A program made the translations under genes and the position numbers. The notes below the pieces were generated by a model. The model searched no databases and had not been told where the DNA came from. It was given only the letters and a program-made list of their open reading frames with translations. Of a DNA stretch of 64,000 nucleotides, positions 6,237-59,546 are shown piece after piece; position 1 is the first letter of the stretch; each line of letters starts with the position of its first letter. Location of the stretch: the IMG/VR virus record IMGVR_UViG_3300029711_000004; one strand, written 5' to 3'. Source of the DNA: a virus (lineage: Duplodnaviria; Heunggongvirae; Uroviricota; Caudoviricetes).

Positions 6237-7280
6237 TTATCTAACGCTCGACGAATGACTTGTGATAGCGCCAACTCCAAGCGCGTAATCAAAGAACAAT
6301 CGTTGATGCATCGCCAGCCTACCGTGCGTCTTCTCCCAATTATCGCGGTCACGCTCAATATCACGCTGGCATGACTGGCACAGAGGAATAGCATAAATGT
6401 CATGCGCGCATAATCGACTATGACGAACGATATAAGGCGTAATGTGAGCGCCAGCTCCCGCAGCTCCACAGCCACAGCATGGACGGGAAGCCACAAAGTC
6501 CATGTACTCGGGCAATTTTAGCGATTGAAGTTTTGGTATCTTGAAATGCGCCATACCTGGGTCGGAGTCAACATCCACAGGGCATACTTTTGCACGCATC
6601 GGCGCGGCGCGTTCTTCCATCATATGAACATATGCTGTAGCGCGATCGTCATACGGGCGAATATCCGCCTCTTTCAGAGGTCCGCTATCCTGCGGAGTAG
6701 CCTTCATCTTATTTATTGATATGCGGCAGACTTCTTCCGGCATCAGGTGCATCATGTTGCGCATGAAAGCCCACCAGCACAGCTCCTGAATACTTAAATC
6801 ATGGCTATTTGAAAGGCCCATTTCCTGACGGGCGACATCCAGTATCCAGTTAACGCGATTATTGTGCAGCGTTTCTTTCAGCTCATTAAAACCACGCATC
6901 CGGTAATGGTTATCGTGATGCCAGCACAACAACACCGCGCTATTGTCTCGTTCAGCGTGGACAATATGGTTGTCACACCAACTACGATCTGCGGCCTGGC
7001 ATTGACCCTCTTTCCTACGCAACCACGCCACCAGCGCGTCAATTCCACCAATACGGCGAAACAGTTCATCGCTGTTAAAAAACGGCTGCAACGCCTCATT
7101 TGTTGCCATGGTTTGCTCGGTAACAACGAGGCCGTCTTCCATGTGCTCGATTAACTCACGCGGCACCGGCTCCATAATAAATTTACGGCCAGCCTCCACC
7201 AGCTTTCTGACCTCCTGATCCACTTTGAACGTGGCGAGGCCAAGCTCTTTCTGTACAAAGGGAGTAATTACGGCTTTCAC
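6237..7280 (-). CDS. Hypothetical protein (347 aa) with Cys/His-rich C-terminal cluster; pdcB position
   Basis: ORF track; CCGCGAAGAG...CAHD...CQSCQ motif; between doc and lpa. Confidence 0.55.
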
Positions 7281-7307
7281 ATCACACCTTTAATCACTGA
7301 TTGGGCT

Positions 7308-7487
7308 TTATCTGCTGCCCGGCATTCTCTGTTTAAGCACAACCATTTCCTGACGGCATAACACAGCAATAGCGGTCCTGACTCCAATTTGCTTACCAAC
7401 CAGGTATTGCTTTACCTTGCGGCGACTCACGCCATCAAGAAGCATCTTTAACGCTTCACGGGACAATTTGTTGTATTTGCGTGCCAT
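7308..7487 (-). CDS. Small basic protein downstream of doc (pdcA position); possible HTH
   Basis: ORF track; start moved to MARKYNKLS to clear doc stop. Confidence 0.45.
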   Translation of the reverse strand: MARKYNKLSREALKMLLDGVSRRKVKQYLVGKQIGVRTAIAVLCRQEMVVLKQRMPGSR

Positions 7488-51608: not shown

Positions 51609-51704
51609 GTTTGTTTAATAAATGCACAATTGGATCTAATAACCTCTTTTTTTTAAAGGCGAAAATATGTACCCTAAATGAGTTATAAGGCAGGTGAGGT
51701 TATA

Positions 51705-52196
51705 ATGAGAAAACTATTACTACCGTTATTATTTATGGCTGGGACTGTTAATGCAGCATCAAGCGTAAAGGAGATTTGTACCGATTATACGAAATACCTT
51801 GGGCACGTTTACGGATTTGCTGTCAGTGAAGACGAATCCATGCGCAAGAAGTTACTGTCAGATATGAAGCGCCTTAAACTTTCTGAAGCGATGGTGCAGC
51901 AGGAACTGTATAAAGTCTCAACCAACGCAAATGCTAAATACCAATATTCTCGCCTATTAAACCCCGATGCAAATGAGATCAATCGAAGCACTTTCGATTA
52001 TATGGTAAAGGCATGCGAAACCGCTCCTGATTTTGCTATCCCTAGCTGGGGTGTGCTGGTGGCGAGCAATGCCGTTAATAAAGAAGATGTTGGAAGAAAT
52101 GGCATTGACTCAATCAGAAATGCCCCAGGAATGCGCCATCAAAACGTGCAGGGTACGCTTGAAGAACGAGCCAGGGGGCCGGGTGTAGCTCCATAA
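51705..52196 (+). CDS. Secreted protein (163 aa) whose C-terminal 30 aa match a Sit motif
   Basis: MRKLLLPLLFMAGTVNAASS signal peptide; GGTGAGG RBS; C-terminus GMRHQNVQGTLEERARGPG. Confidence 0.7.
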   Translation: MRKLLLPLLFMAGTVNAASSVKEICTDYTKYLGHVYGFAVSEDESMRKKLLSDMKRLKLSEAMVQQELYKVSTNANAKYQYSRLLNPDANEINRSTFDYMVKACETAPDFAIPSWGVLVASNAVNKEDVGRNGIDSIRNAPGMRHQNVQGTLEERARGPGVAP

Positions 52197-52284
52197 TTTA
52201 ATGAATAATATTAAATTCTCTGGGCATAGTGGATCTAACAATATGGACTATGCCTATAATATCTAAAACAAAAAGGATAAAAAT

Positions 52285-52791
52285 ATGAAATTATATAAGT
52301 CATTGTATAGCTTTTTATTAATGTCCTCTTTTCTGCCATTATCAGCAATGGCAGGTTCTACCGTTTGGACGGTAGGAGGTGAGCAAGGGTGGAGAGAAAT
52401 CTCTGCAACCAATGACGATGGTTATACAATTAACTTTTCTTGTGATGCTGGAGCAAGGGAAGGTTCAGAAGATCATATCGCTGGAAGAAATTTGTATGTA
52501 AGCGGAGGAAAAGAGAATGCCGATTTTTCTACACGCGACACAATATCACGTAAAGCAGATGTAATTACTTTAATTGTTGGCCCGGATAGTTTTAATATTG
52601 GCACGCAAAACACTGCTCCTAATCGTAGGGAATGGTATTCATTTTGGAAGGCAGTGTCATCTACAAATGAAAAAAACATAGATGTATATATCGGTTCGAG
52701 TCGAATCACATCATTCACTCTGGATGGTATTTCCAGTATTTATACAGAAGCTAAAAATGACGGGTGTTTAAAACAAGATGACGGTGAATAA
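52285..52791 (+). CDS. Secreted protein (168 aa)
   Basis: MKLYKSLYSFLLMSSFLPLSAMAGS signal peptide; AAGGA RBS; TATAAT upstream. Confidence 0.7.
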   Translation: MKLYKSLYSFLLMSSFLPLSAMAGSTVWTVGGEQGWREISATNDDGYTINFSCDAGAREGSEDHIAGRNLYVSGGKENADFSTRDTISRKADVITLIVGPDSFNIGTQNTAPNRREWYSFWKAVSSTNEKNIDVYIGSSRITSFTLDGISSIYTEAKNDGCLKQDDGE

Positions 52792-53851
52792 AGTGAAGGA
52801 TATTAAACACATTTCGCTTAACTCTAATAATAAAGCTGAAGGCACTGTCTTTTATGATTATTTAAATGAAATTAAAGGAGTGAGGCATAAAAAGATAAGT
52901 GGTTTATTAAATTCAGAATATATTTACAAGAGTTTAGTTAAACAGTTTGGAACAGTTAAAAAACAAGAATTAATTAATGATTGTTTTCGAAAAGAACTTG
53001 AGTCTTTACCAAAAGTTACGAGAATTGCACACCAGTTTCGTGAACAAATGGTATTTTTACAGAAACAGTATCAGGCGGCTTTTCCCAGTGATGCAAATGA
53101 GCATATTCAAATAATTAAAAATCAAGCTGAAATGGCTATGCCGTTACGAAAAAACTCAGAAGCCATTAATAAGATAGCTGGCTTAAATAATATGGAGGAG
53201 GTATTTAAAGAATTACACTCTAATATAAATTACAAAATTAAGATAAGCAAAGATATTAAAGAAATAATAAAGCAGTATAATAAAACAAGAAGTGTATTAT
53301 TAGAGCAAGTAGTAGAGCTTGGGCTTGTTACTATCGCGCAGGCTTATGCTAATGATTCTATAAAATCAGCGCATACCGAAAGTGAGCATCAAAACAAAGG
53401 ATTTAATAAATCTAGTTCGACGTTTTTTGATTCATTTAAGGCGCTTCCTTCTCCTATTCAGATCTTCCTTCTGTGGATTTTTTATCAAGTGGTGCTTGGC
53501 GCTATAACTGATTATGCAAAAGAAAAGACATTATCGCAAATTTACAAGATGGAATCATATCTTCTATCTCTAAATGAGGATAAGCCAATATCTAAGCAAA
53601 AGCTAACACAAGAAAATAAAGATATTCAGTGGGAGGATCTTAATAATTTTAGAGCTATAACAGGTGATAACGTAAGGTTGCATGTCGGCCCTTCTTTAAA
53701 TAGTGAAGTGATTGAATGCATTGGCAAAAACACAATTGTTGCTATTTTAGATAAGAAAGATCGTCAATGGCTTTACGTGCAGGTTAAATCAGGGGATGAG
53801 TTTATTACTGGTTGGATTACACGAACATACACAAAGCCTCTTAAGGCTTGA
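52778..53851 (+). CDS. Membrane-anchored protein (357 aa) with C-terminal SH3b-like domain
   Basis: K/N-rich; hydrophobic helix IQIFLLWIFYQVVLGAI; C-terminus NVRLHVGPSLNSEVIECIGKNTIVAILDKKDRQWLYVQVKSGDEFITGWI. Confidence 0.7.
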   Translation: MTVNKVKDIKHISLNSNNKAEGTVFYDYLNEIKGVRHKKISGLLNSEYIYKSLVKQFGTVKKQELINDCFRKELESLPKVTRIAHQFREQMVFLQKQYQAAFPSDANEHIQIIKNQAEMAMPLRKNSEAINKIAGLNNMEEVFKELHSNINYKIKISKDIKEIIKQYNKTRSVLLEQVVELGLVTIAQAYANDSIKSAHTESEHQNKGFNKSSSTFFDSFKALPSPIQIFLLWIFYQVVLGAITDYAKEKTLSQIYKMESYLLSLNEDKPISKQKLTQENKDIQWEDLNNFRAITGDNVRLHVGPSLNSEVIECIGKNTIVAILDKKDRQWLYVQVKSGDEFITGWITRTYTKPLKA

Positions 53852-53965
53852 ATTTTATCTCCGCATCTTCGGATTGGGTGTTGATGACGATGTGCTACTT
53901 GAAGCACTTGAGTTGTTTTAACGTAGTATCTGAAATGTGTAGACTGACCGGTAACAAATGACAAC

Positions 53966-56171: not shown

Positions 56172-59100
56172 ATGGAAAGAAAAAACGCCAATATTGACGA
56201 TGTTATAAGGACAGTTGAAACCGCCAGCGCAAAAGAGCTGGAAGAGCTTGCAGGTATCCGGGAAGCTGTTGAAGATTTGAAAGGGGGACGCGTTGCAACT
56301 GTTGATCCTGTCTCTCACAGTGTGTCGGCATTAAATCGCACAATCGAAAATTCCAGGCCAGACTTTGTGGCCAATGCGCCATCAGTGGCCCCTATTGTTG
56401 AGGCAATGAAACGGCTTAATTTAGGGGACGTTTCTCGTGTAGTTCAGGAGGATGTTGCTCTACAGGAACCGCAGGCCAAATCAACTACGCGAAAGGGTAA
56501 AAAACGACGCAAGAAGGCTATAACAGAAGATGTAAAGGCGCAACGGACCGAAGCAGCCGAACACGCTCGCGAAATGTTCGGTCAAAAAGGCGGTGCGCAA
56601 AAAAGCCAAAACCAACGCGATGCGCGTGGTCGTTTTATTGGAAAGCCAGGGAGTAAGGCCGCAGCGGAAGATGCCCGTGCTGAACGTGCTGAAAAGGCCA
56701 GGCGCAAAGAGGATGATGAGCGTCTAAATGCTGAATCAGGTTTATTAAAAAAACTGTCAAAAGTAGCTGAAGGCATAGGTAACCCTTCAGAGACTCGCGC
56801 CGTCGATGCGTTAGGTTATGCCGTTGCTGGTCCATTGTGGGCCGCAGGGAAGGAGCTTGGCGGGATATCAAAAGAAGTTGGTGGATCGCTTAATGGTGCC
56901 AGAAAGTCTATTGCCGATGTGATTCGTGGCAATGACGATAACAGCCGTAGAAAAGGTTTTTTTAGGCGTAAATCGCAAAATAGTGCCGATGTCGTTCAGG
57001 TTAACACCCAAAAACGGACGGTTCAGGAACTTCAGGATCAGACCAGCGAAATTAAAGAGGGCAATGACAAGATTCTCAGCGCCCTTGATCAGATAGCCAA
57101 AAACACCGGGAAAAAGAAGGGCGGCTTGCTGTCCAAATTATTTAGCCTGTTAGGGAAGGGGGCCGGTGGCGTCGCGTCGTTGTTAATGGGGCGTGGCATG
57201 CTGAAAAAAGCTGGAGCACTCGCTTTTGGCGCTCTGGGGGCAAAGAAACTTGTAGGAATGCTACGCGGTGGTGGCAAGAAGACTCTCGCCCATGAAGGCG
57301 GAGATTTGGCTGCCCGGGCAGCAGGTAAACTTGGATTAAAGGCAGTTGGTAAAGGGGCGTTACGCGCAATTCCCCTAGTCGGCACAGTGGCTGGAGGTAT
57401 TTATGATGCGGTAACCGGTTGGAATGATACAGAAGCGCAACGTCGAGCGTTTGGGCTTAAATCAGGACAAGATCCATCATTCCAGCAAAAAGCCGCTTAT
57501 ACGTTAGCCAATGTTCTTGATTTGGGGGGACTGGTATCTGGTATTAGCAGTGCTATTGGTGATGTTCTCAAATCACTTGGATTTGAGGATATCGGCAATA
57601 TGTTGCAATCATTTTCGACGGAAAGTATTGCCCAGGCCATTGATAGTGGGATTACCAACTTAGAAACATATATTTCTAACCTTGGCGACACCATTTCTAC
57701 CAAGTTCGATGATTACACAGCAAAGATTGGTGATGCTGTTTCAGCATGGTTTAGCGATACATCTAATAAGCTGCTTGAAAAGCTGGATGCCATCAAAGAC
57801 TTCTTTACTGTCGATAACCTGAAACAGGTTTTCAGTGATGCAATTGATAGTGCAATTGATTTCATTAAGAACCCAGGGAAACACATTAAAGAGGCAGCTA
57901 GTAATATTTGGGATGGGGTTAAAAATTTACCAGGTAAAGCATTAGATGCAGCGGTTGATGCCGTTAAAAATACCCCTGCGGCAATGATTGTATCAAAAAC
58001 ACCCAATCCGATCGGCGAGGCTAATGCGAAAGAAATCACTCCAGAGTTAAAAGCTCCGGTTAATAGCCAGCAGGGGACATCTGATTCTAAAGCTGAATCC
58101 GATGCCAAACAGACTAATATTGCTGCCCGCGTGATAAATGCGGCCCTGGATATGGCGAAAGATAGCAATAAAACAGTTAAAGAAACTGCTAATCAGATTA
58201 TCAATGCAAATGCCGTAGAAACAGGAAATAAAGCAGCACAAACAATTGATGCTGCCTTGGGCCAGTCTGCTACAGGTAAGGAGGAAGCATTAAGTGCATA
58301 TGAGATAGATAAACGTCGATTTAACAATGGCAAGGATGTTTCTTTGCCAAAATTAAATGCTGCCGGATACCAATGGATTTCTGACAATGCCGATTATTTT
58401 GATGAGCTTGAACGTAAGTATGGGCTTGAAAAAGGGATTCTGTCAGCAGTTGCATCCGCAGAGTCTAGTGCAGGCCAGAGAACTGGAAATCCAGTAGACA
58501 AAAACGGGAACAAACTTTCATCTGCCCTTGGGGCTTTTCAGATCACTAAAGGTACAAGGGAGGATCTTGGACTCAGCGATGCTGATGCCATGGATACACG
58601 AAAAGCAGCTGATGGTGCCGCCAGATACCTAAGTATGCTGATGAACCGTTATAACGGTGATCAGGGTCGTGCAATAGCTGCCTATCATGCTGGTATGGGG
58701 CATGTTGATAAGGGGAGAGTAGTCGCCGGTACCGGCGAATATGTTACTCGTGTCAGAGGTTATCAGCGGATGCTCAATAATGGTGCCGTTTATGGCTCTA
58801 AGGTAGATCATAGCGCACCAGCAATTCACGAAAAGATACCTGATAACGCTGTTATCGATCAGTCTACTGGCCTGGCGTTTACCCCTGGTGATAGCCCGTT
58901 TGAGAAAGGCGGTCTGGTAGACAAAATTGGCAATGCTGTTGGTGTTAACGATCTGGTCAACAAATTCATGAATGGCCGGGGTATGCGTCGGGAAGTCGTT
59001 CAGGGAACGCTCGAAGAACGTGCACGAGGGAAGGGGACCGCAACAGCAGCTGGCAATGTGTATGTTGATACTCCGATGCCAGTTGAAGAGGCGCGTCCGG

Positions 59101-59546
59101 TGGCCAGCAACTCAAGTTACTTTGACCAACTCGGCGCACAAATGGGGATTGATGGACTATTCGATAAACTCCGCAACTCGCCGGGGATGCGGAAAAATAA
59201 TGCGCCTGAACCAGCCTCCACGTCCCTGGTGACGACTGCCGCCAACGATTTGCAGCAACCAACCGGTCGTATGCAGATAGACGGACAGGTTATTAGTGAC
59301 CTTGGCGGCTCCGGTGCCAAGCCGACAATGCAGTTGGCTGATAATACCGTTTCACTTGATGGTGAAACGAAGCGGCTGTTTGCGCAGATGACCTCATTGC
59401 TTGCCAGGATTGAAGAGCACACCAAAGACTCGGCGAAAGGCCAGGGAACTGTCGTAAAGGTCAGCACGCCTCAGCCGGGCGTTATGCGCACGGTACCACT
59501 GTCAATTGATGATCCGTTGATGAATGACTACGCGAGAGTTGATTGA
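56172..59546 (+). CDS. sit: Sit: tape-measure-like structural injection protein with lytic transglycosylase domain (1124 aa)
   Basis: SLT-domain motifs AESSAG...GAFQITKGT...AYHAGMG; Gly/Lys-rich repeats; largest ORF in tail operon. Confidence 0.85.
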   Translation: MERKNANIDDVIRTVETASAKELEELAGIREAVEDLKGGRVATVDPVSHSVSALNRTIENSRPDFVANAPSVAPIVEAMKRLNLGDVSRVVQEDVALQEPQAKSTTRKGKKRRKKAITEDVKAQRTEAAEHAREMFGQKGGAQKSQNQRDARGRFIGKPGSKAAAEDARAERAEKARRKEDDERLNAESGLLKKLSKVAEGIGNPSETRAVDALGYAVAGPLWAAGKELGGISKEVGGSLNGARKSIADVIRGNDDNSRRKGFFRRKSQNSADVVQVNTQKRTVQELQDQTSEIKEGNDKILSALDQIAKNTGKKKGGLLSKLFSLLGKGAGGVASLLMGRGMLKKAGALAFGALGAKKLVGMLRGGGKKTLAHEGGDLAARAAGKLGLKAVGKGALRAIPLVGTVAGGIYDAVTGWNDTEAQRRAFGLKSGQDPSFQQKAAYTLANVLDLGGLVSGISSAIGDVLKSLGFEDIGNMLQSFSTESIAQAIDSGITNLETYISNLGDTISTKFDDYTAKIGDAVSAWFSDTSNKLLEKLDAIKDFFTVDNLKQVFSDAIDSAIDFIKNPGKHIKEAASNIWDGVKNLPGKALDAAVDAVKNTPAAMIVSKTPNPIGEANAKEITPELKAPVNSQQGTSDSKAESDAKQTNIAARVINAALDMAKDSNKTVKETANQIINANAVETGNKAAQTIDAALGQSATGKEEALSAYEIDKRRFNNGKDVSLPKLNAAGYQWISDNADYFDELERKYGLEKGILSAVASAESSAGQRTGNPVDKNGNKLSSALGAFQITKGTREDLGLSDADAMDTRKAADGAARYLSMLMNRYNGDQGRAIAAYHAGMGHVDKGRVVAGTGEYVTRVRGYQRMLNNGAVYGSKVDHSAPAIHEKIPDNAVIDQSTGLAFTPGDSPFEKGGLVDKIGNAVGVNDLVNKFMNGRGMRREVVQGTLEERARGKGTATAAGNVYVDTPMPVEEARPVASNSSYFDQLGAQMGIDGLFDKLRNSPGMRKNNAPEPASTSLVTTAANDLQQPTGRMQIDGQVISDLGGSGAKPTMQLADNTVSLDGETKRLFAQMTSLLARIEEHTKDSAKGQGTVVKVSTPQPGVMRTVPLSIDDPLMNDYARVD

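What the first reader, a model, noticed from the sequence alone, without database searches (positions are those of the whole stretch)
52100..52196. Secreted ORF ends with a copy of a motif from the Sit C-terminal region
The last 30 aa of the first cassette ORF (IRNAPGMRHQNVQGTLEERARGPGVAP) match a segment of Sit at nt 58965-59040 (NGRGMRREVVQGTLEERARGKG, 15 of 19 identical), and Sit repeats LRNSPGMRK at about 59170-59200. The nucleotide sequences differ, so this is not a recent duplication. A periplasmic protein carrying a piece of the injection protein could act as a decoy or competitor during DNA entry.
Basis: seen in the sequence. Interest (0 to 1): 0.75.

Follow-up and report, generated by a model that had tools for sequence, protein, structure and literature searches.

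The report
Periplasmic SimA carries a tape-measure motif
A small secreted protein of a P1-like phage ends in a flexible tail that copies a conserved short motif of the phage's own DNA-injection (tape measure) protein Sit, which suggests, without proving, that the prophage blocks related incoming phages by molecular mimicry.

Summary
ORF1 (51678/51705-52196) is a full-length member of the SimA family; P1's annotated 52-aa SimA is only its N-terminal remnant. Its C-terminal 30 aa (nt 52095-52184) match Sit aa 926-955 (nt 58947-59036). A half-copy lies at Sit aa 992-1010.

- **Significance:** Smith-Waterman score is 91, against 38±5 for shuffles (P~1e-6). Profile-profile E is 1.5e-5, and the PHROG hits are reciprocal.
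- **Specificity:** a motif profile searched against 1.84 billion proteins finds only Sit-like and SimA-like proteins.
- **Persistence:** the pair occurs in Escherichia, Salmonella, Klebsiella and Cronobacter elements, and in a lineage whose Sit is 41% identical. Codons differ, so this is not recent DNA copying.
- **Selection:** the N-x-x-G-M-R-x-Q core is the most constrained part of SimA (pN/pS 0.13).
- **Structure:** in SimA the motif sits on a low-confidence tail behind a signal peptide and a confident helical domain. In Sit it lies just after the SLT domain.

The most likely reading is a periplasmic mimic that interferes with incoming Sit at DNA entry. No functional test exists, the binding partner is unknown, and cognate co-variation is not significant. 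I rate it a new variant of superinfection exclusion, of moderate to high interest.

The parts
51678..52196 (+). simA (ORF1): full-length SimA-family protein, 172 aa from the first ATG. The probable true start is the ATG at 51705 (163 aa), behind a GGTGAGG Shine-Dalgarno sequence.
   Evidence: It matches phrog_3933 at E 2.4e-113. It is 92% identical to P1 SimA over aa 1-51, after which P1 is truncated. There are 26 homologs of 163-246 aa. Of 267 PLSDB plasmids with a match, 126 hold at least 80% of it.
51705..51755 (+). Sec-type signal peptide MRKLLLPLLFMAGTVNA, with predicted cleavage before ASS.
   Evidence: This is read from the sequence. It is conserved in all homologs, and AlphaFold pLDDT is below 50 for residues 1-24. 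No dedicated predictor was run.
51756..52082 (+). Helical N-domain of mature SimA (about aa 27-135), with invariant C34 and C113 (probable periplasmic disulfide).
52095..52184 (+). Sit-like motif on the flexible C-terminal tail of SimA: RNGIDSIRNAPGMRHQNVQGTLEERARGPG. The core NAPGMRHQ is at 52122-52145.
   Evidence: pLDDT is about 55-60. The core has pN/pS 0.135 against 0.28 for the N-domain. Homology with the Ro157-type simA allele ends exactly at 52184.
56172..59546 (+). sit: tape measure and structural injection transglycosylase, 1124 aa. The SLT domain spans aa 742-847.
   Evidence: It is 84% identical to P1 Sit. Pfam SLT matches at E 1.6e-14. PMC10695390 shows sit is essential and calls it the tape measure protein. 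PMC12810830 places Sit in the central baseplate region but could not resolve it.
58947..59036 (+). Sit motif copy 1 (aa 926-955): NDLVNKFMNGRGMRREVVQGTLEERARGKG. It lies about 80 aa downstream of the SLT domain.
   Evidence: It is present in every Sit examined, including Cronobacter JK004 and a Sit only 41% identical. The 30-aa window has mean pairwise identity 0.71 against 0.54 for the whole protein, and ranks 8th among non-overlapping windows.
59145..59201 (+). Sit half-motif copy 2 (aa 992-1010): GIDGLFDKLRNSPGMRKNN. It keeps only the GMR half and lies inside a 68-aa insertion.
   Evidence: The insertion occurs only in the Escherichia P1 group and is absent from the Salmonella, Klebsiella and Cronobacter Sits.
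52285..52791 (+). ORF2: a secreted YfjT-like protein (168 aa), the conserved downstream neighbour of simA. Whether it belongs to the same function is unknown.
   Evidence: It matches phrog_3429 at E 1.6e-71. A PF27224/YfjT-like gene follows simA in every lineage examined where simA lies beside the tail genes. It is related to E. coli K-12 YfjT at E 1.6e-5.

Best explanation
SimA is a prophage-encoded periplasmic protein that interferes with DNA entry of superinfecting P1-like phages by mimicking a short linear motif of their tape measure protein Sit.

Proposed steps:
1. SimA is exported by its Sec signal peptide and folds into a compact, probably disulfide-bonded, helical domain. This step is inferred from the sequence and the model.
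2. Its flexible C-terminal tail displays the core [F/I]-x-N-x-x-G-M-R-x-Q, followed in many alleles by V-x-G-T-L-x-x-R-A-x-G-x-G. This is the same motif that every Sit carries about 80 residues after its SLT domain. This step is shown.
3. When a related phage contracts its tail, the C-terminal part of Sit is the first part of the tape measure to enter the periplasm. This follows from general knowledge of tape-measure orientation in long-tailed phages. There the motif must engage a partner: a host envelope component, another ejected phage protein, or Sit itself.
4. Resident SimA either pre-occupies that partner or co-assembles with Sit through the shared motif. No conduit forms and infection stops after adsorption, which is the phenotype classically mapped to the P1 sim locus. 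This step is inferred.
For: - The similarity is significant and limited to the motif. No other sim-cassette protein resembles anything else in the 64-kb window.
- The motif is exclusive to the Sit and SimA families among 1.84e9 representative proteins.
- Both copies persist in Escherichia, Salmonella, Klebsiella aerogenes and Cronobacter elements, and in a distant lineage whose Sit is 41% identical and whose simA is not adjacent to the tail genes.
- In four lineages only 6-7 of the 16-18 identical residues share a codon, so selection acts on the protein.
- The GMR core has the lowest pN/pS in SimA (0.135, with pS 0.86).
- One Sit (L088) has the motif with no simA between the tail-tube and adaptor genes on that 15-kb contig, which suggests the motif's primary role is in Sit.
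- The motif lies in low-confidence, probably flexible, regions in both proteins, as expected of a linear motif.
- The gene sits in the sim locus beside c4/icd/ant, 96% identical to P1 up to the point where P1 simA is truncated.
- Sim causes post-adsorption exclusion (PMC8546580, refs 56-57).
- There is precedent for an exclusion protein that binds a myophage tape measure: T4 Imm (bioRxiv 10.64898/2026.03.06.709160).
Against: - There is no functional data for full-length SimA. In P1 the sim phenotype is attributed to simC and simA is truncated.
- Cognate SimA-Sit pairs are not significantly more similar than non-cognate pairs (P 0.18, 0.33 and 0.12). Within E. coli, SimA alleles do not clearly track Sit copy-2 alleles.
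- The second half of the motif is lost in many SimA alleles and is only moderately constrained (pN/pS 0.50).
- AlphaFold gives no confident fold or docking for the motif in Sit, so the partner is unknown.
- SimA matches no known defence family.
Confidence: 0.45

Rival explanations
1. The motif is a shared targeting or anchoring module. It would bind a generic envelope structure, such as peptidoglycan, a membrane surface or a periplasmic chaperone, and each protein would need that binding independently. SimA's real activity would reside in its helical domain. That domain could be, for example, a Spackle- or Ivy-like inhibitor of the Sit SLT domain, or something unrelated to Sit. There would be no competition between the two proteins.
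For: - The motif follows the SLT domain directly in Sit.
- SimA's helical domain is well folded, conserved and under purifying selection in its own right (pN/pS 0.28).
- Lack of cognate co-variation fits a generic, invariant ligand.
Against: - A generic envelope-binding module should occur in other protein families, but the motif is found only in Sit and SimA among 1.84e9 proteins.
- There is no match to any Pfam, NCBIfam or PADLOC binding domain.
Confidence: 0.22
2. SimA serves the phage's own cycle rather than exclusion. It could protect the lysogen or infected cell from lysis-from-without by Sit's transglycosylase at high multiplicity, or it could modulate envelope remodelling at lysis. In either case the motif would be used to recognise Sit.
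For: - The periplasmic location and Sit-specific motif are equally compatible with this.
- T4 Spackle combines exclusion with protection from lysis-from-without (my own knowledge).
- simA is compositionally backbone-like, not a recent cargo gene.
Against: - simA is dispensable. It is truncated in P1 and in about half of the PLSDB plasmids with a match, and CRISPRi knock-down has no effect on plating (PMC10695390).
- The locus context is immunity, not lysis.
Confidence: 0.13
3. The resemblance is a functionless relic of an old recombination that fused a sit fragment to simA, or it is a chance resemblance.
For: - The cassette junction lies exactly at the end of the motif, so this is a recombination-prone spot.
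- The second half of the motif is often lost.
Against: - Chance is excluded (P about 1e-6).
- A neutral relic would not keep N-x-x-GMR-x-Q through saturated synonymous divergence (pN/pS 0.135).
- Nor would it persist in a lineage whose Sit is 41% identical.
- At 62% DNA identity the two copies are too diverged for homologous recombination.
Confidence: 0.05

Closest known systems
P1 sim (superimmunity) locus: simA-simB-simC, with SimC the processed periplasmic Sim protein
   Same: The genomic position is the same, between c4/icd/ant and pmgC. The upstream DNA and the first 50 or so codons of simA are the same (96% identity up to 51844). All products carry signal peptides. The known phenotype is a block after adsorption (PMC8546580, refs 56-57).
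   Different: The window has no simB or simC; ORF2 and ORF3 replace them. P1's SimA is a 52-aa stump without the motif. SimC has no similarity to Sit or to SimA. No function has been shown for full-length SimA.
T4 Imm, an exclusion protein that binds the tape measure protein gp29 (bioRxiv 10.64898/2026.03.06.709160)
   Same: It is a phage-encoded envelope protein of a contractile-tailed phage. It stops genome translocation by acting on the tape measure protein after tail contraction.
   Different: Imm is an integral inner-membrane protein that binds a helical-bundle domain of the tape measure. It shares no motif with its target. SimA is soluble and periplasmic, shares no sequence with Imm, and carries a copy of its presumed target's motif.
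T4 Spackle (Sp), a periplasmic inhibitor of the tail lysozyme gp5 (my own knowledge: Kanamaru 2020; Shi 2020)
   Same: It is a small, secreted, all-helical phage protein in the periplasm directed against the muralytic, tail-borne component of an incoming phage.
   Different: Spackle binds the lysozyme domain directly and does not mimic it. No structural match to SimA was found in the PDB search. Whether SimA touches the SLT domain is unknown.
HK97 gp15 and TP-J34 Ltp, exclusion proteins whose specificity maps to the tape measure protein (my own knowledge: Cumby 2012 and 2015; Bebeacua 2013. Ltp is described in PMC3952083.)
   Same: They are prophage-expressed envelope proteins that block DNA entry, with escape mutations or specificity mapping to the tape measure protein.
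   Different: gp15 is an inner-membrane protein and Ltp a lipoprotein, both from siphophages. Neither shares a motif with its target tape measure. There is no sequence relation to SimA.

Membership tests
SimA family (phrog_3933; named 'simA domain protein' by NCBI) | Sequence membership: N-terminal signal peptide followed by the conserved helical domain (CTDY.[KR]YLGH ... SEAMV ... IPSW). | tested here: met
   phrog_3933 matches at E 2.4e-113 over aa 10-171. There are 26 homologs with 44 invariant columns. Identity to P1 SimA is 92% over its 51 aa.
SimA family (phrog_3933; named 'simA domain protein' by NCBI) | Position at the ImmI/sim locus, downstream of c4-icd-ant and upstream of pmgC-tub-pmgB-sit. 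| tested here: met
   One distant lineage (L089) has simA elsewhere in the genome.
Superinfection-exclusion proteins acting at DNA entry (P1 SimC, T4 Imm and Sp, HK97 gp15, Ltp) | Envelope (periplasm or membrane) location. | tested here: inconclusive
   A Sec-type signal peptide and an invariant Cys pair are seen in the sequence. No predictor or experiment was available.
Superinfection-exclusion proteins acting at DNA entry (P1 SimC, T4 Imm and Sp, HK97 gp15, Ltp) | Homology to a characterised exclusion protein or defence family. | tested here: not met
   There is no similarity to P1 SimB or SimC, no PADLOC hit, no curated Pfam or NCBIfam family, and no structural match.
Superinfection-exclusion proteins acting at DNA entry (P1 SimC, T4 Imm and Sp, HK97 gp15, Ltp) | Expression from the prophage blocks infection after normal adsorption, with transfection unaffected. 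| not testable with these tools
   This needs plating, adsorption and DNA-entry assays.
Short-linear-motif mimicry of a viral or host protein | Similarity is confined to a short stretch in a flexible region, with the rest of the two proteins unrelated. | tested here: met
   About 30 aa are shared. hhalign aligns 29 columns. The N-domain and other tails do not resemble Sit (P 0.1-0.4). pLDDT is about 55 in SimA and 30-57 in Sit.
Short-linear-motif mimicry of a viral or host protein | The motif is kept by selection in both proteins, not by recent DNA transfer. | tested here: met
   Codons differ in four lineages. Core pN/pS is 0.135. Sit motif window identity is 0.71 against 0.54 overall.
Short-linear-motif mimicry of a viral or host protein | Mimic and model bind the same partner, or each other. 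| not testable with these tools
   The partner is unknown. No multimer prediction or binding assay was available.
Short-linear-motif mimicry of a viral or host protein | The mimic tracks its cognate model (co-variation). | tested here: inconclusive
   Permutation P is 0.18 and 0.33 over 9 lineages and 0.12 over 5. The GTL-to-GSM change is shared by SimA and Sit in one distant lineage, but that is a single event.
Tape measure / Sit family (phrog_2533) | A long protein with hydrophobic segments and an SLT domain, encoded among the tail genes. | tested here: not met
   SimA matches phrog_2533 only over 36 residues (E 1.8e-5) and has no SLT domain. It shares a motif with Sit but is not a member of that family.

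The most novel reading that the evidence does not exclude
SimA would be the first exclusion protein that works by displaying a copy of the invader's own tape-measure motif in the periplasm. The shared N-x-x-GMR-x-Q / VQGTLxxRAxG element would then mark the docking site through which P1-type tape measures engage a still unknown envelope or phage partner to open the DNA conduit. SimA's tail could be used as bait to identify that partner.
Probability: 0.35. Interest if true: 0.78.

Novelty: new variant of a known kind. Interest (0 to 1): 0.62.

Why it matters
How contractile-tailed phages such as P1 move DNA across the periplasm and inner membrane is poorly understood. So is what the C-terminal part of the tape measure does there; Sit could not be resolved in the latest P1 virion structures (PMC12810830).

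A short motif that is conserved in every Sit and copied onto a secreted prophage protein points to a specific functional site. It also gives a simple experimental handle: tail peptides, GMR mutants and escape mutants.

If the mimicry works as proposed, it adds a new mechanism to superinfection exclusion, namely competition by motif mimicry rather than binding by an unrelated inhibitor. It would also explain why the sim locus of P1-like phage-plasmids is a hotspot where different periplasmic proteins are swapped. These elements are widespread carriers of resistance genes in Enterobacteriaceae.

Finally, it corrects the reference annotation: P1 'SimA' is a truncated remnant of a larger family.

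Tried and rejected
- **Chance or low complexity.** Rejected by the shuffle tests, the profile-profile comparison and the database-wide profile search.
- **Recent duplication or gene conversion.** Rejected. DNA identity is 62%, most identical residues use different codons, and GC3 of the motif equals that of the rest of simA.
- **Motif DNA as a recombination anchor between simA and sit.** Rejected. The two copies are too diverged, and recombination between them would delete essential tail genes.
- **'The motif lies in the most invariant block of Sit'.** I first inferred this from alignment A2 and then withdrew it. Partial sequences restrict the columns that can be invariant. The unbiased analysis of 10 full-length Sits ranks the motif window 8th, which is still above the SLT domain.
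- **Intramolecular docking of the motif on the SLT domain.** AlphaFold2 of Sit aa 700-1124 gave only a confident SLT domain; the rest had pLDDT 30-57. Uninformative.
- **PTP-like phytase.** The Pfam PF14566 hit on SimA aa 34-118 is below the gathering score and no CX5R catalytic motif is present. I treated it as spurious.
- **Co-variation of cognate pairs.** Not significant.
- **Other mimicry in the cassette.** ORF2, ORF3, P1 SimB and SimC, and the other SimA tails show no significant similarity to Sit or to anything else in the window.
- **K-12 YfjS as a SimA analogue next to YfjT.** No similarity.
- **Word-indexed search with a 141-aa Sit fragment.** It returned only fragments.
- **Lobocka 2004.** The paper is not held in the library.
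- **Literature.** Searches found no description of a SimA-Sit shared motif.

Full report
**What the window is.** The region is a P1-like phage-plasmid (Punavirus). On the + strand the gene order is:
- ant/icd/c4, on the other strand, up to about 51600
- ORF1, 51678-52196
- ORF2, 52285-52791
- ORF3, 52778-53851
- pmgC, tub and pmgB
- sit, 56172-59546
- pmgA, bplA, gene 16 and R

This order follows. Against phage P1, DNA identity is 96% up to 51844 and resumes at 53953. Against phage vB_EcoM-Ro157c2YLVW, it runs to 52184 and resumes at 53945. This is therefore the P1 sim (superimmunity) locus with a different cargo. The literature already describes it as a low-G+C variable hotspot (PMC6906374, PMC9603915).

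**Checking the observation.** ORF1 ends ...GRNGIDSIRNAPGMRHQNVQGTLEERARGPGVAP. Sit contains ...GVNDLVNKFMNGRGMRREVVQGTLEERARGKG... at aa 926-955 (nt 58947-59036). It also contains a half-copy, GIDGLFDKLRNSPGMRKNN, at aa 992-1010 (nt 59145-59201).
- BLASTP gives 21/41 identities, pairwise E 8e-8.
- The Smith-Waterman score is 91, against 38±5 (maximum 63-65) in 3000 shuffles of either protein. Gumbel P is 1-2e-6, and 2e-8 when only the 45-aa tail is shuffled.
- Profile evidence is independent of the pairwise result. ORF1 hits the Sit PHROG (phrog_2533) at E 1.8e-5, and Sit hits the ORF1 PHROG (phrog_3933) at E 6.7e-6.
- hhalign of the two family alignments aligns 29 columns at E 1.5e-5.
- These are the only three occurrences in the six-frame translation of the window.
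- At the DNA level the copies are 56/90 identical, and only 7 of the 16 identical residues share a codon.

**What ORF1 is.** ORF1 is a full-length member of the SimA family.
- P1's annotated SimA (52 aa, 'putative superimmunity accessory function') is identical in its signal peptide and first 30 or so mature residues, and then stops. The reference gene is a remnant.
- Homologs of 163-246 aa occur in Escherichia, Salmonella, Klebsiella and Cronobacter P1-like elements.
- In PLSDB, 267 plasmids match; 126 of them hold at least 80% of the protein, and the rest only the stump.
- The likely start is the ATG at 51705, behind GGTGAGG. The N-terminus MRKLLLPLLFMAGTVNA|ASS has the features of a Sec signal peptide, and two Cys are invariant.
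- AlphaFold2 with 22 sequences gives a confident all-helical domain (aa 30-135, pLDDT above 90). The tail is low-confidence (aa 140-172, pLDDT about 55) with two short helices flanking the GMR loop.
- simA is compositionally backbone-like (GC3 0.44, against 0.41 for sit), whereas ORF2 and ORF3 are foreign (GC3 0.27).
- ORF1 is therefore not cassette cargo. It is the conserved left-hand gene, and the cassette junction lies exactly at the end of its motif (52184).

**How the motif is distributed.** All full-length SimA proteins keep [F/I]-x-N-[AS]-[PR]-G-M-R-[HQ]-Q. One allele has GVR instead of GMR.
- The second half, V-x-G-[TS]-L-x-x-R-A-x-G-x-G, is kept in the E. coli alleles and in some Salmonella and K. 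aerogenes alleles.
- In other alleles it is replaced by Cys-loop modules.
- Every Sit examined has the full motif once. The Escherichia P1 group has an extra half-motif inside a 68-aa insertion.
- A 46-position profile of the motif, searched with HMMER against 1.84 billion representative proteins, returned ten hits at E up to 1e-3. These were Sit-like tape measures, SimA-like proteins, fragments of both, and one spurious repetitive protein. The motif is therefore specific to these two families.

That search also uncovered a distant lineage, IMG/VR UViG_2871745582_000001.
- Its Sit is only 41% identical to the window's Sit.
- Its simA is about 15 kb from sit and not beside the tail genes.
- It still has the pair: SimA ENAPGMRHQAVKGSMAERARGDG against Sit RNAPGMRHQVATGSMADRAYGMG. 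That is 18/38 identical, with only 7 shared codons.

A near-identical Sit (98%) on a 15-kb contig from another sample (L088) has no simA between bplB and pmgC, the position simA usually occupies. Since the related lineage above keeps simA about 15 kb away, simA may simply lie outside that contig. The motif is still found in every Sit examined, while simA is truncated or absent in many elements, so it is probably primarily a Sit feature that SimA copies.

**Selection.** In a codon alignment of 10 diverged simA genes, the eight-codon core has pN/pS 0.135 with synonymous sites near saturation (pS 0.86).
- That is the lowest value in the gene: the N-domain gives 0.28, the linker 0.48 and the signal peptide 0.43.
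- The second half gives 0.50 among the five alleles that keep it.
- Among 10 full-length Sits, the motif window has mean pairwise identity 0.71, against 0.54 for the whole protein and 0.54 for the SLT domain.
- It ranks 8th among non-overlapping 30-aa windows.
- An earlier impression from alignment A2, that it is the single most invariant block, was an artefact of partial sequences. I withdraw it.

**Tests that did not discriminate.**
- Cognate SimA-Sit pairs are not significantly more alike than non-cognate pairs. Permutation P is 0.18 (31 aa) and 0.33 (core) for nine lineages, and 0.12 for the five full-motif lineages.
- Some details are suggestive. The GTL-to-GSM change occurs in both proteins of the distant lineage. 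EERARG is shared only by E. coli SimA and E. coli Sit. NAPGMRHQ is identical in both proteins of the K. aerogenes element. Each of these is a single event.
- Within E. coli, SimA RN[AS]PGMR usually goes with Sit copy-2 RNSPGMR (27 unique haplotypes against 3), but linkage and clonality make this uninterpretable.
- AlphaFold2 of Sit aa 700-1124 models only the SLT domain confidently. The motif region has pLDDT 30-57, so no intramolecular docking site is revealed.
- No other part of SimA, and no other sim-cassette protein (ORF2, ORF3, P1 SimB or SimC), resembles Sit or anything else in the window.

**Mechanism.** Several points are established.
- sit is essential and is the tape measure protein, with a lytic transglycosylase domain (PMC10695390).
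- In the latest P1 virion structures Sit is placed in the central baseplate region but could not be resolved (PMC12810830).
- The P1 sim locus blocks infection after adsorption (Devlin 1982 and Kliem & Dreiseikelmann 1989, as cited in PMC8546580).
- From general knowledge of long-tailed phages, the C-terminus of the tape measure sits at the distal tail tip and leaves first.

Putting these together, the SLT domain and the motif just behind it would be among the first parts of an incoming virion to reach the periplasm, which is where SimA would already be. The best-supported reading is that SimA's tail mimics the Sit motif and interferes with the step that the motif mediates. It could do so by occupying the motif's partner or by co-assembling with Sit. 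I put this at about 0.45.

T4 Imm, recently shown to bind the T4 tape measure (bioRxiv 10.64898/2026.03.06.709160), is a precedent for exclusion through the tape measure of a myophage, although not through mimicry.

The rivals are:
- a shared generic envelope-anchoring module, with the real activity in the helical domain (0.22);
- a role in the phage's own cycle, such as protection from lysis-from-without (0.13);
- a functionless relic or chance resemblance (0.05, contradicted by the selection data).

**Comparison with known systems, and novelty.**
- SimA is a member of the SimA/phrog_3933 family, which has no known function.
- It is not homologous to SimC, Imm, Spackle, HK97 gp15 or Ltp.
- It is not a tape measure protein. 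It shares only a linear motif with one.
- The searchable literature does not mention a SimA-Sit relationship.
- If the proposed mechanism holds, this is a new variant of superinfection exclusion, based on motif mimicry. It is not a categorically new kind of system.
- The observation itself is solid and cheap to test experimentally.

Noticed in passing
window 51678-51844; L001 (P1) 7278-7436: The reference P1 'SimA' (52 aa) is an N-terminal remnant of a 163-246 aa family. P1-type elements lost the rest when simB and simC were inserted. About half of the P1-like plasmids in PLSDB carry the full-length gene (126 of 267).
   Followed up: yes
window 52285-52791 (ORF2): This secreted 168-aa protein is YfjT-like (phrog_3429). 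A PF27224/YfjT-like gene immediately follows simA in the Escherichia, Salmonella, Klebsiella and Cronobacter P1-like elements examined, and it is related to YfjT of the E. coli K-12 CP4-57 prophage (E 1.6e-5 to 1.5e-12). K-12 YfjS, next to YfjT, is not SimA-like. Its function is unknown and it may work with SimA.
   Followed up: partly
window 52778-53851 (ORF3): This 357-aa protein (phrog_7086) has one hydrophobic segment (about aa 215-240) and a C-terminal bacterial SH3_3 domain (E 3e-6). It has very low GC (0.32; GC3 0.27) and overlaps the end of ORF2 by 14 nt. It replaces simC and looks like recently acquired envelope-associated cargo.
   Followed up: no
window 58269-58850 (Sit aa 700-893); alignment A2: The SLT domain of Sit is mosaic among E. 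coli P1-like elements. There are two clearly different types (...AVASAESSAGQRTGNPVDK... against ...AIAATESGGDPNAKS...). The flanking N-terminal and post-SLT regions stay nearly identical, which implies recombination inside sit.
   Followed up: partly
window 59040-59245 (Sit aa 957-1024): The second half-motif of Sit lies in a 68-aa insertion found only in the Escherichia P1 group. It occurs in two alleles, RNSPGMRKNN and INARGMRSNN.
   Followed up: partly
P0040 and other Sit homologs (alignment A2 columns 200-260); loci L039, L051, L060: Sit length varies from 1068 to about 1270 aa. This is partly through tandem copies of a unit of about 17 aa, EANAKEITPELKAPVNS, upstream of the SLT domain. 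For a tape measure protein this could change tail length or just a linker.
   Followed up: no
SimA homologs in L005, L007, L053, L008-L010, JK004: After the GMR core, many SimA alleles carry one or two copies of a Cys-x(about 35)-Cys module (K.C...KKDSP.VP...L.ATA.SLC.DG). The 215-aa E. coli allele has a charged helical tail instead. The SimA C-terminus is modular, and the GMR core is its only constant element.
   Followed up: partly
window 52211-52266: A 20-nt imperfect inverted repeat (75% complementary, 16-nt spacer) lies in the ORF1-ORF2 intergenic region, just past the cassette junction. It may be a transcript hairpin or a recombination scar.
   Followed up: no
window 51777-52031 (SimA aa 34-118): There is a sub-threshold Pfam hit to PF14566, PTP-like phytase (25.2 bits against a cut-off of 27). 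The same hit is precomputed for many homologs. No CX5R catalytic motif is present, so it is probably a spurious helical resemblance.
   Followed up: partly
L089 (IMGVR_UViG_2871745582_000001, contig 15068-35595): In this distant P1-like element, simA is followed by small secreted or membrane ORFs, a large methyltransferase-like ORF and a DnaB-like helicase rather than tail genes. The sim locus is therefore not always linked to sit. The host of this element was not identified, and it has no match in PLSDB.
   Followed up: partly
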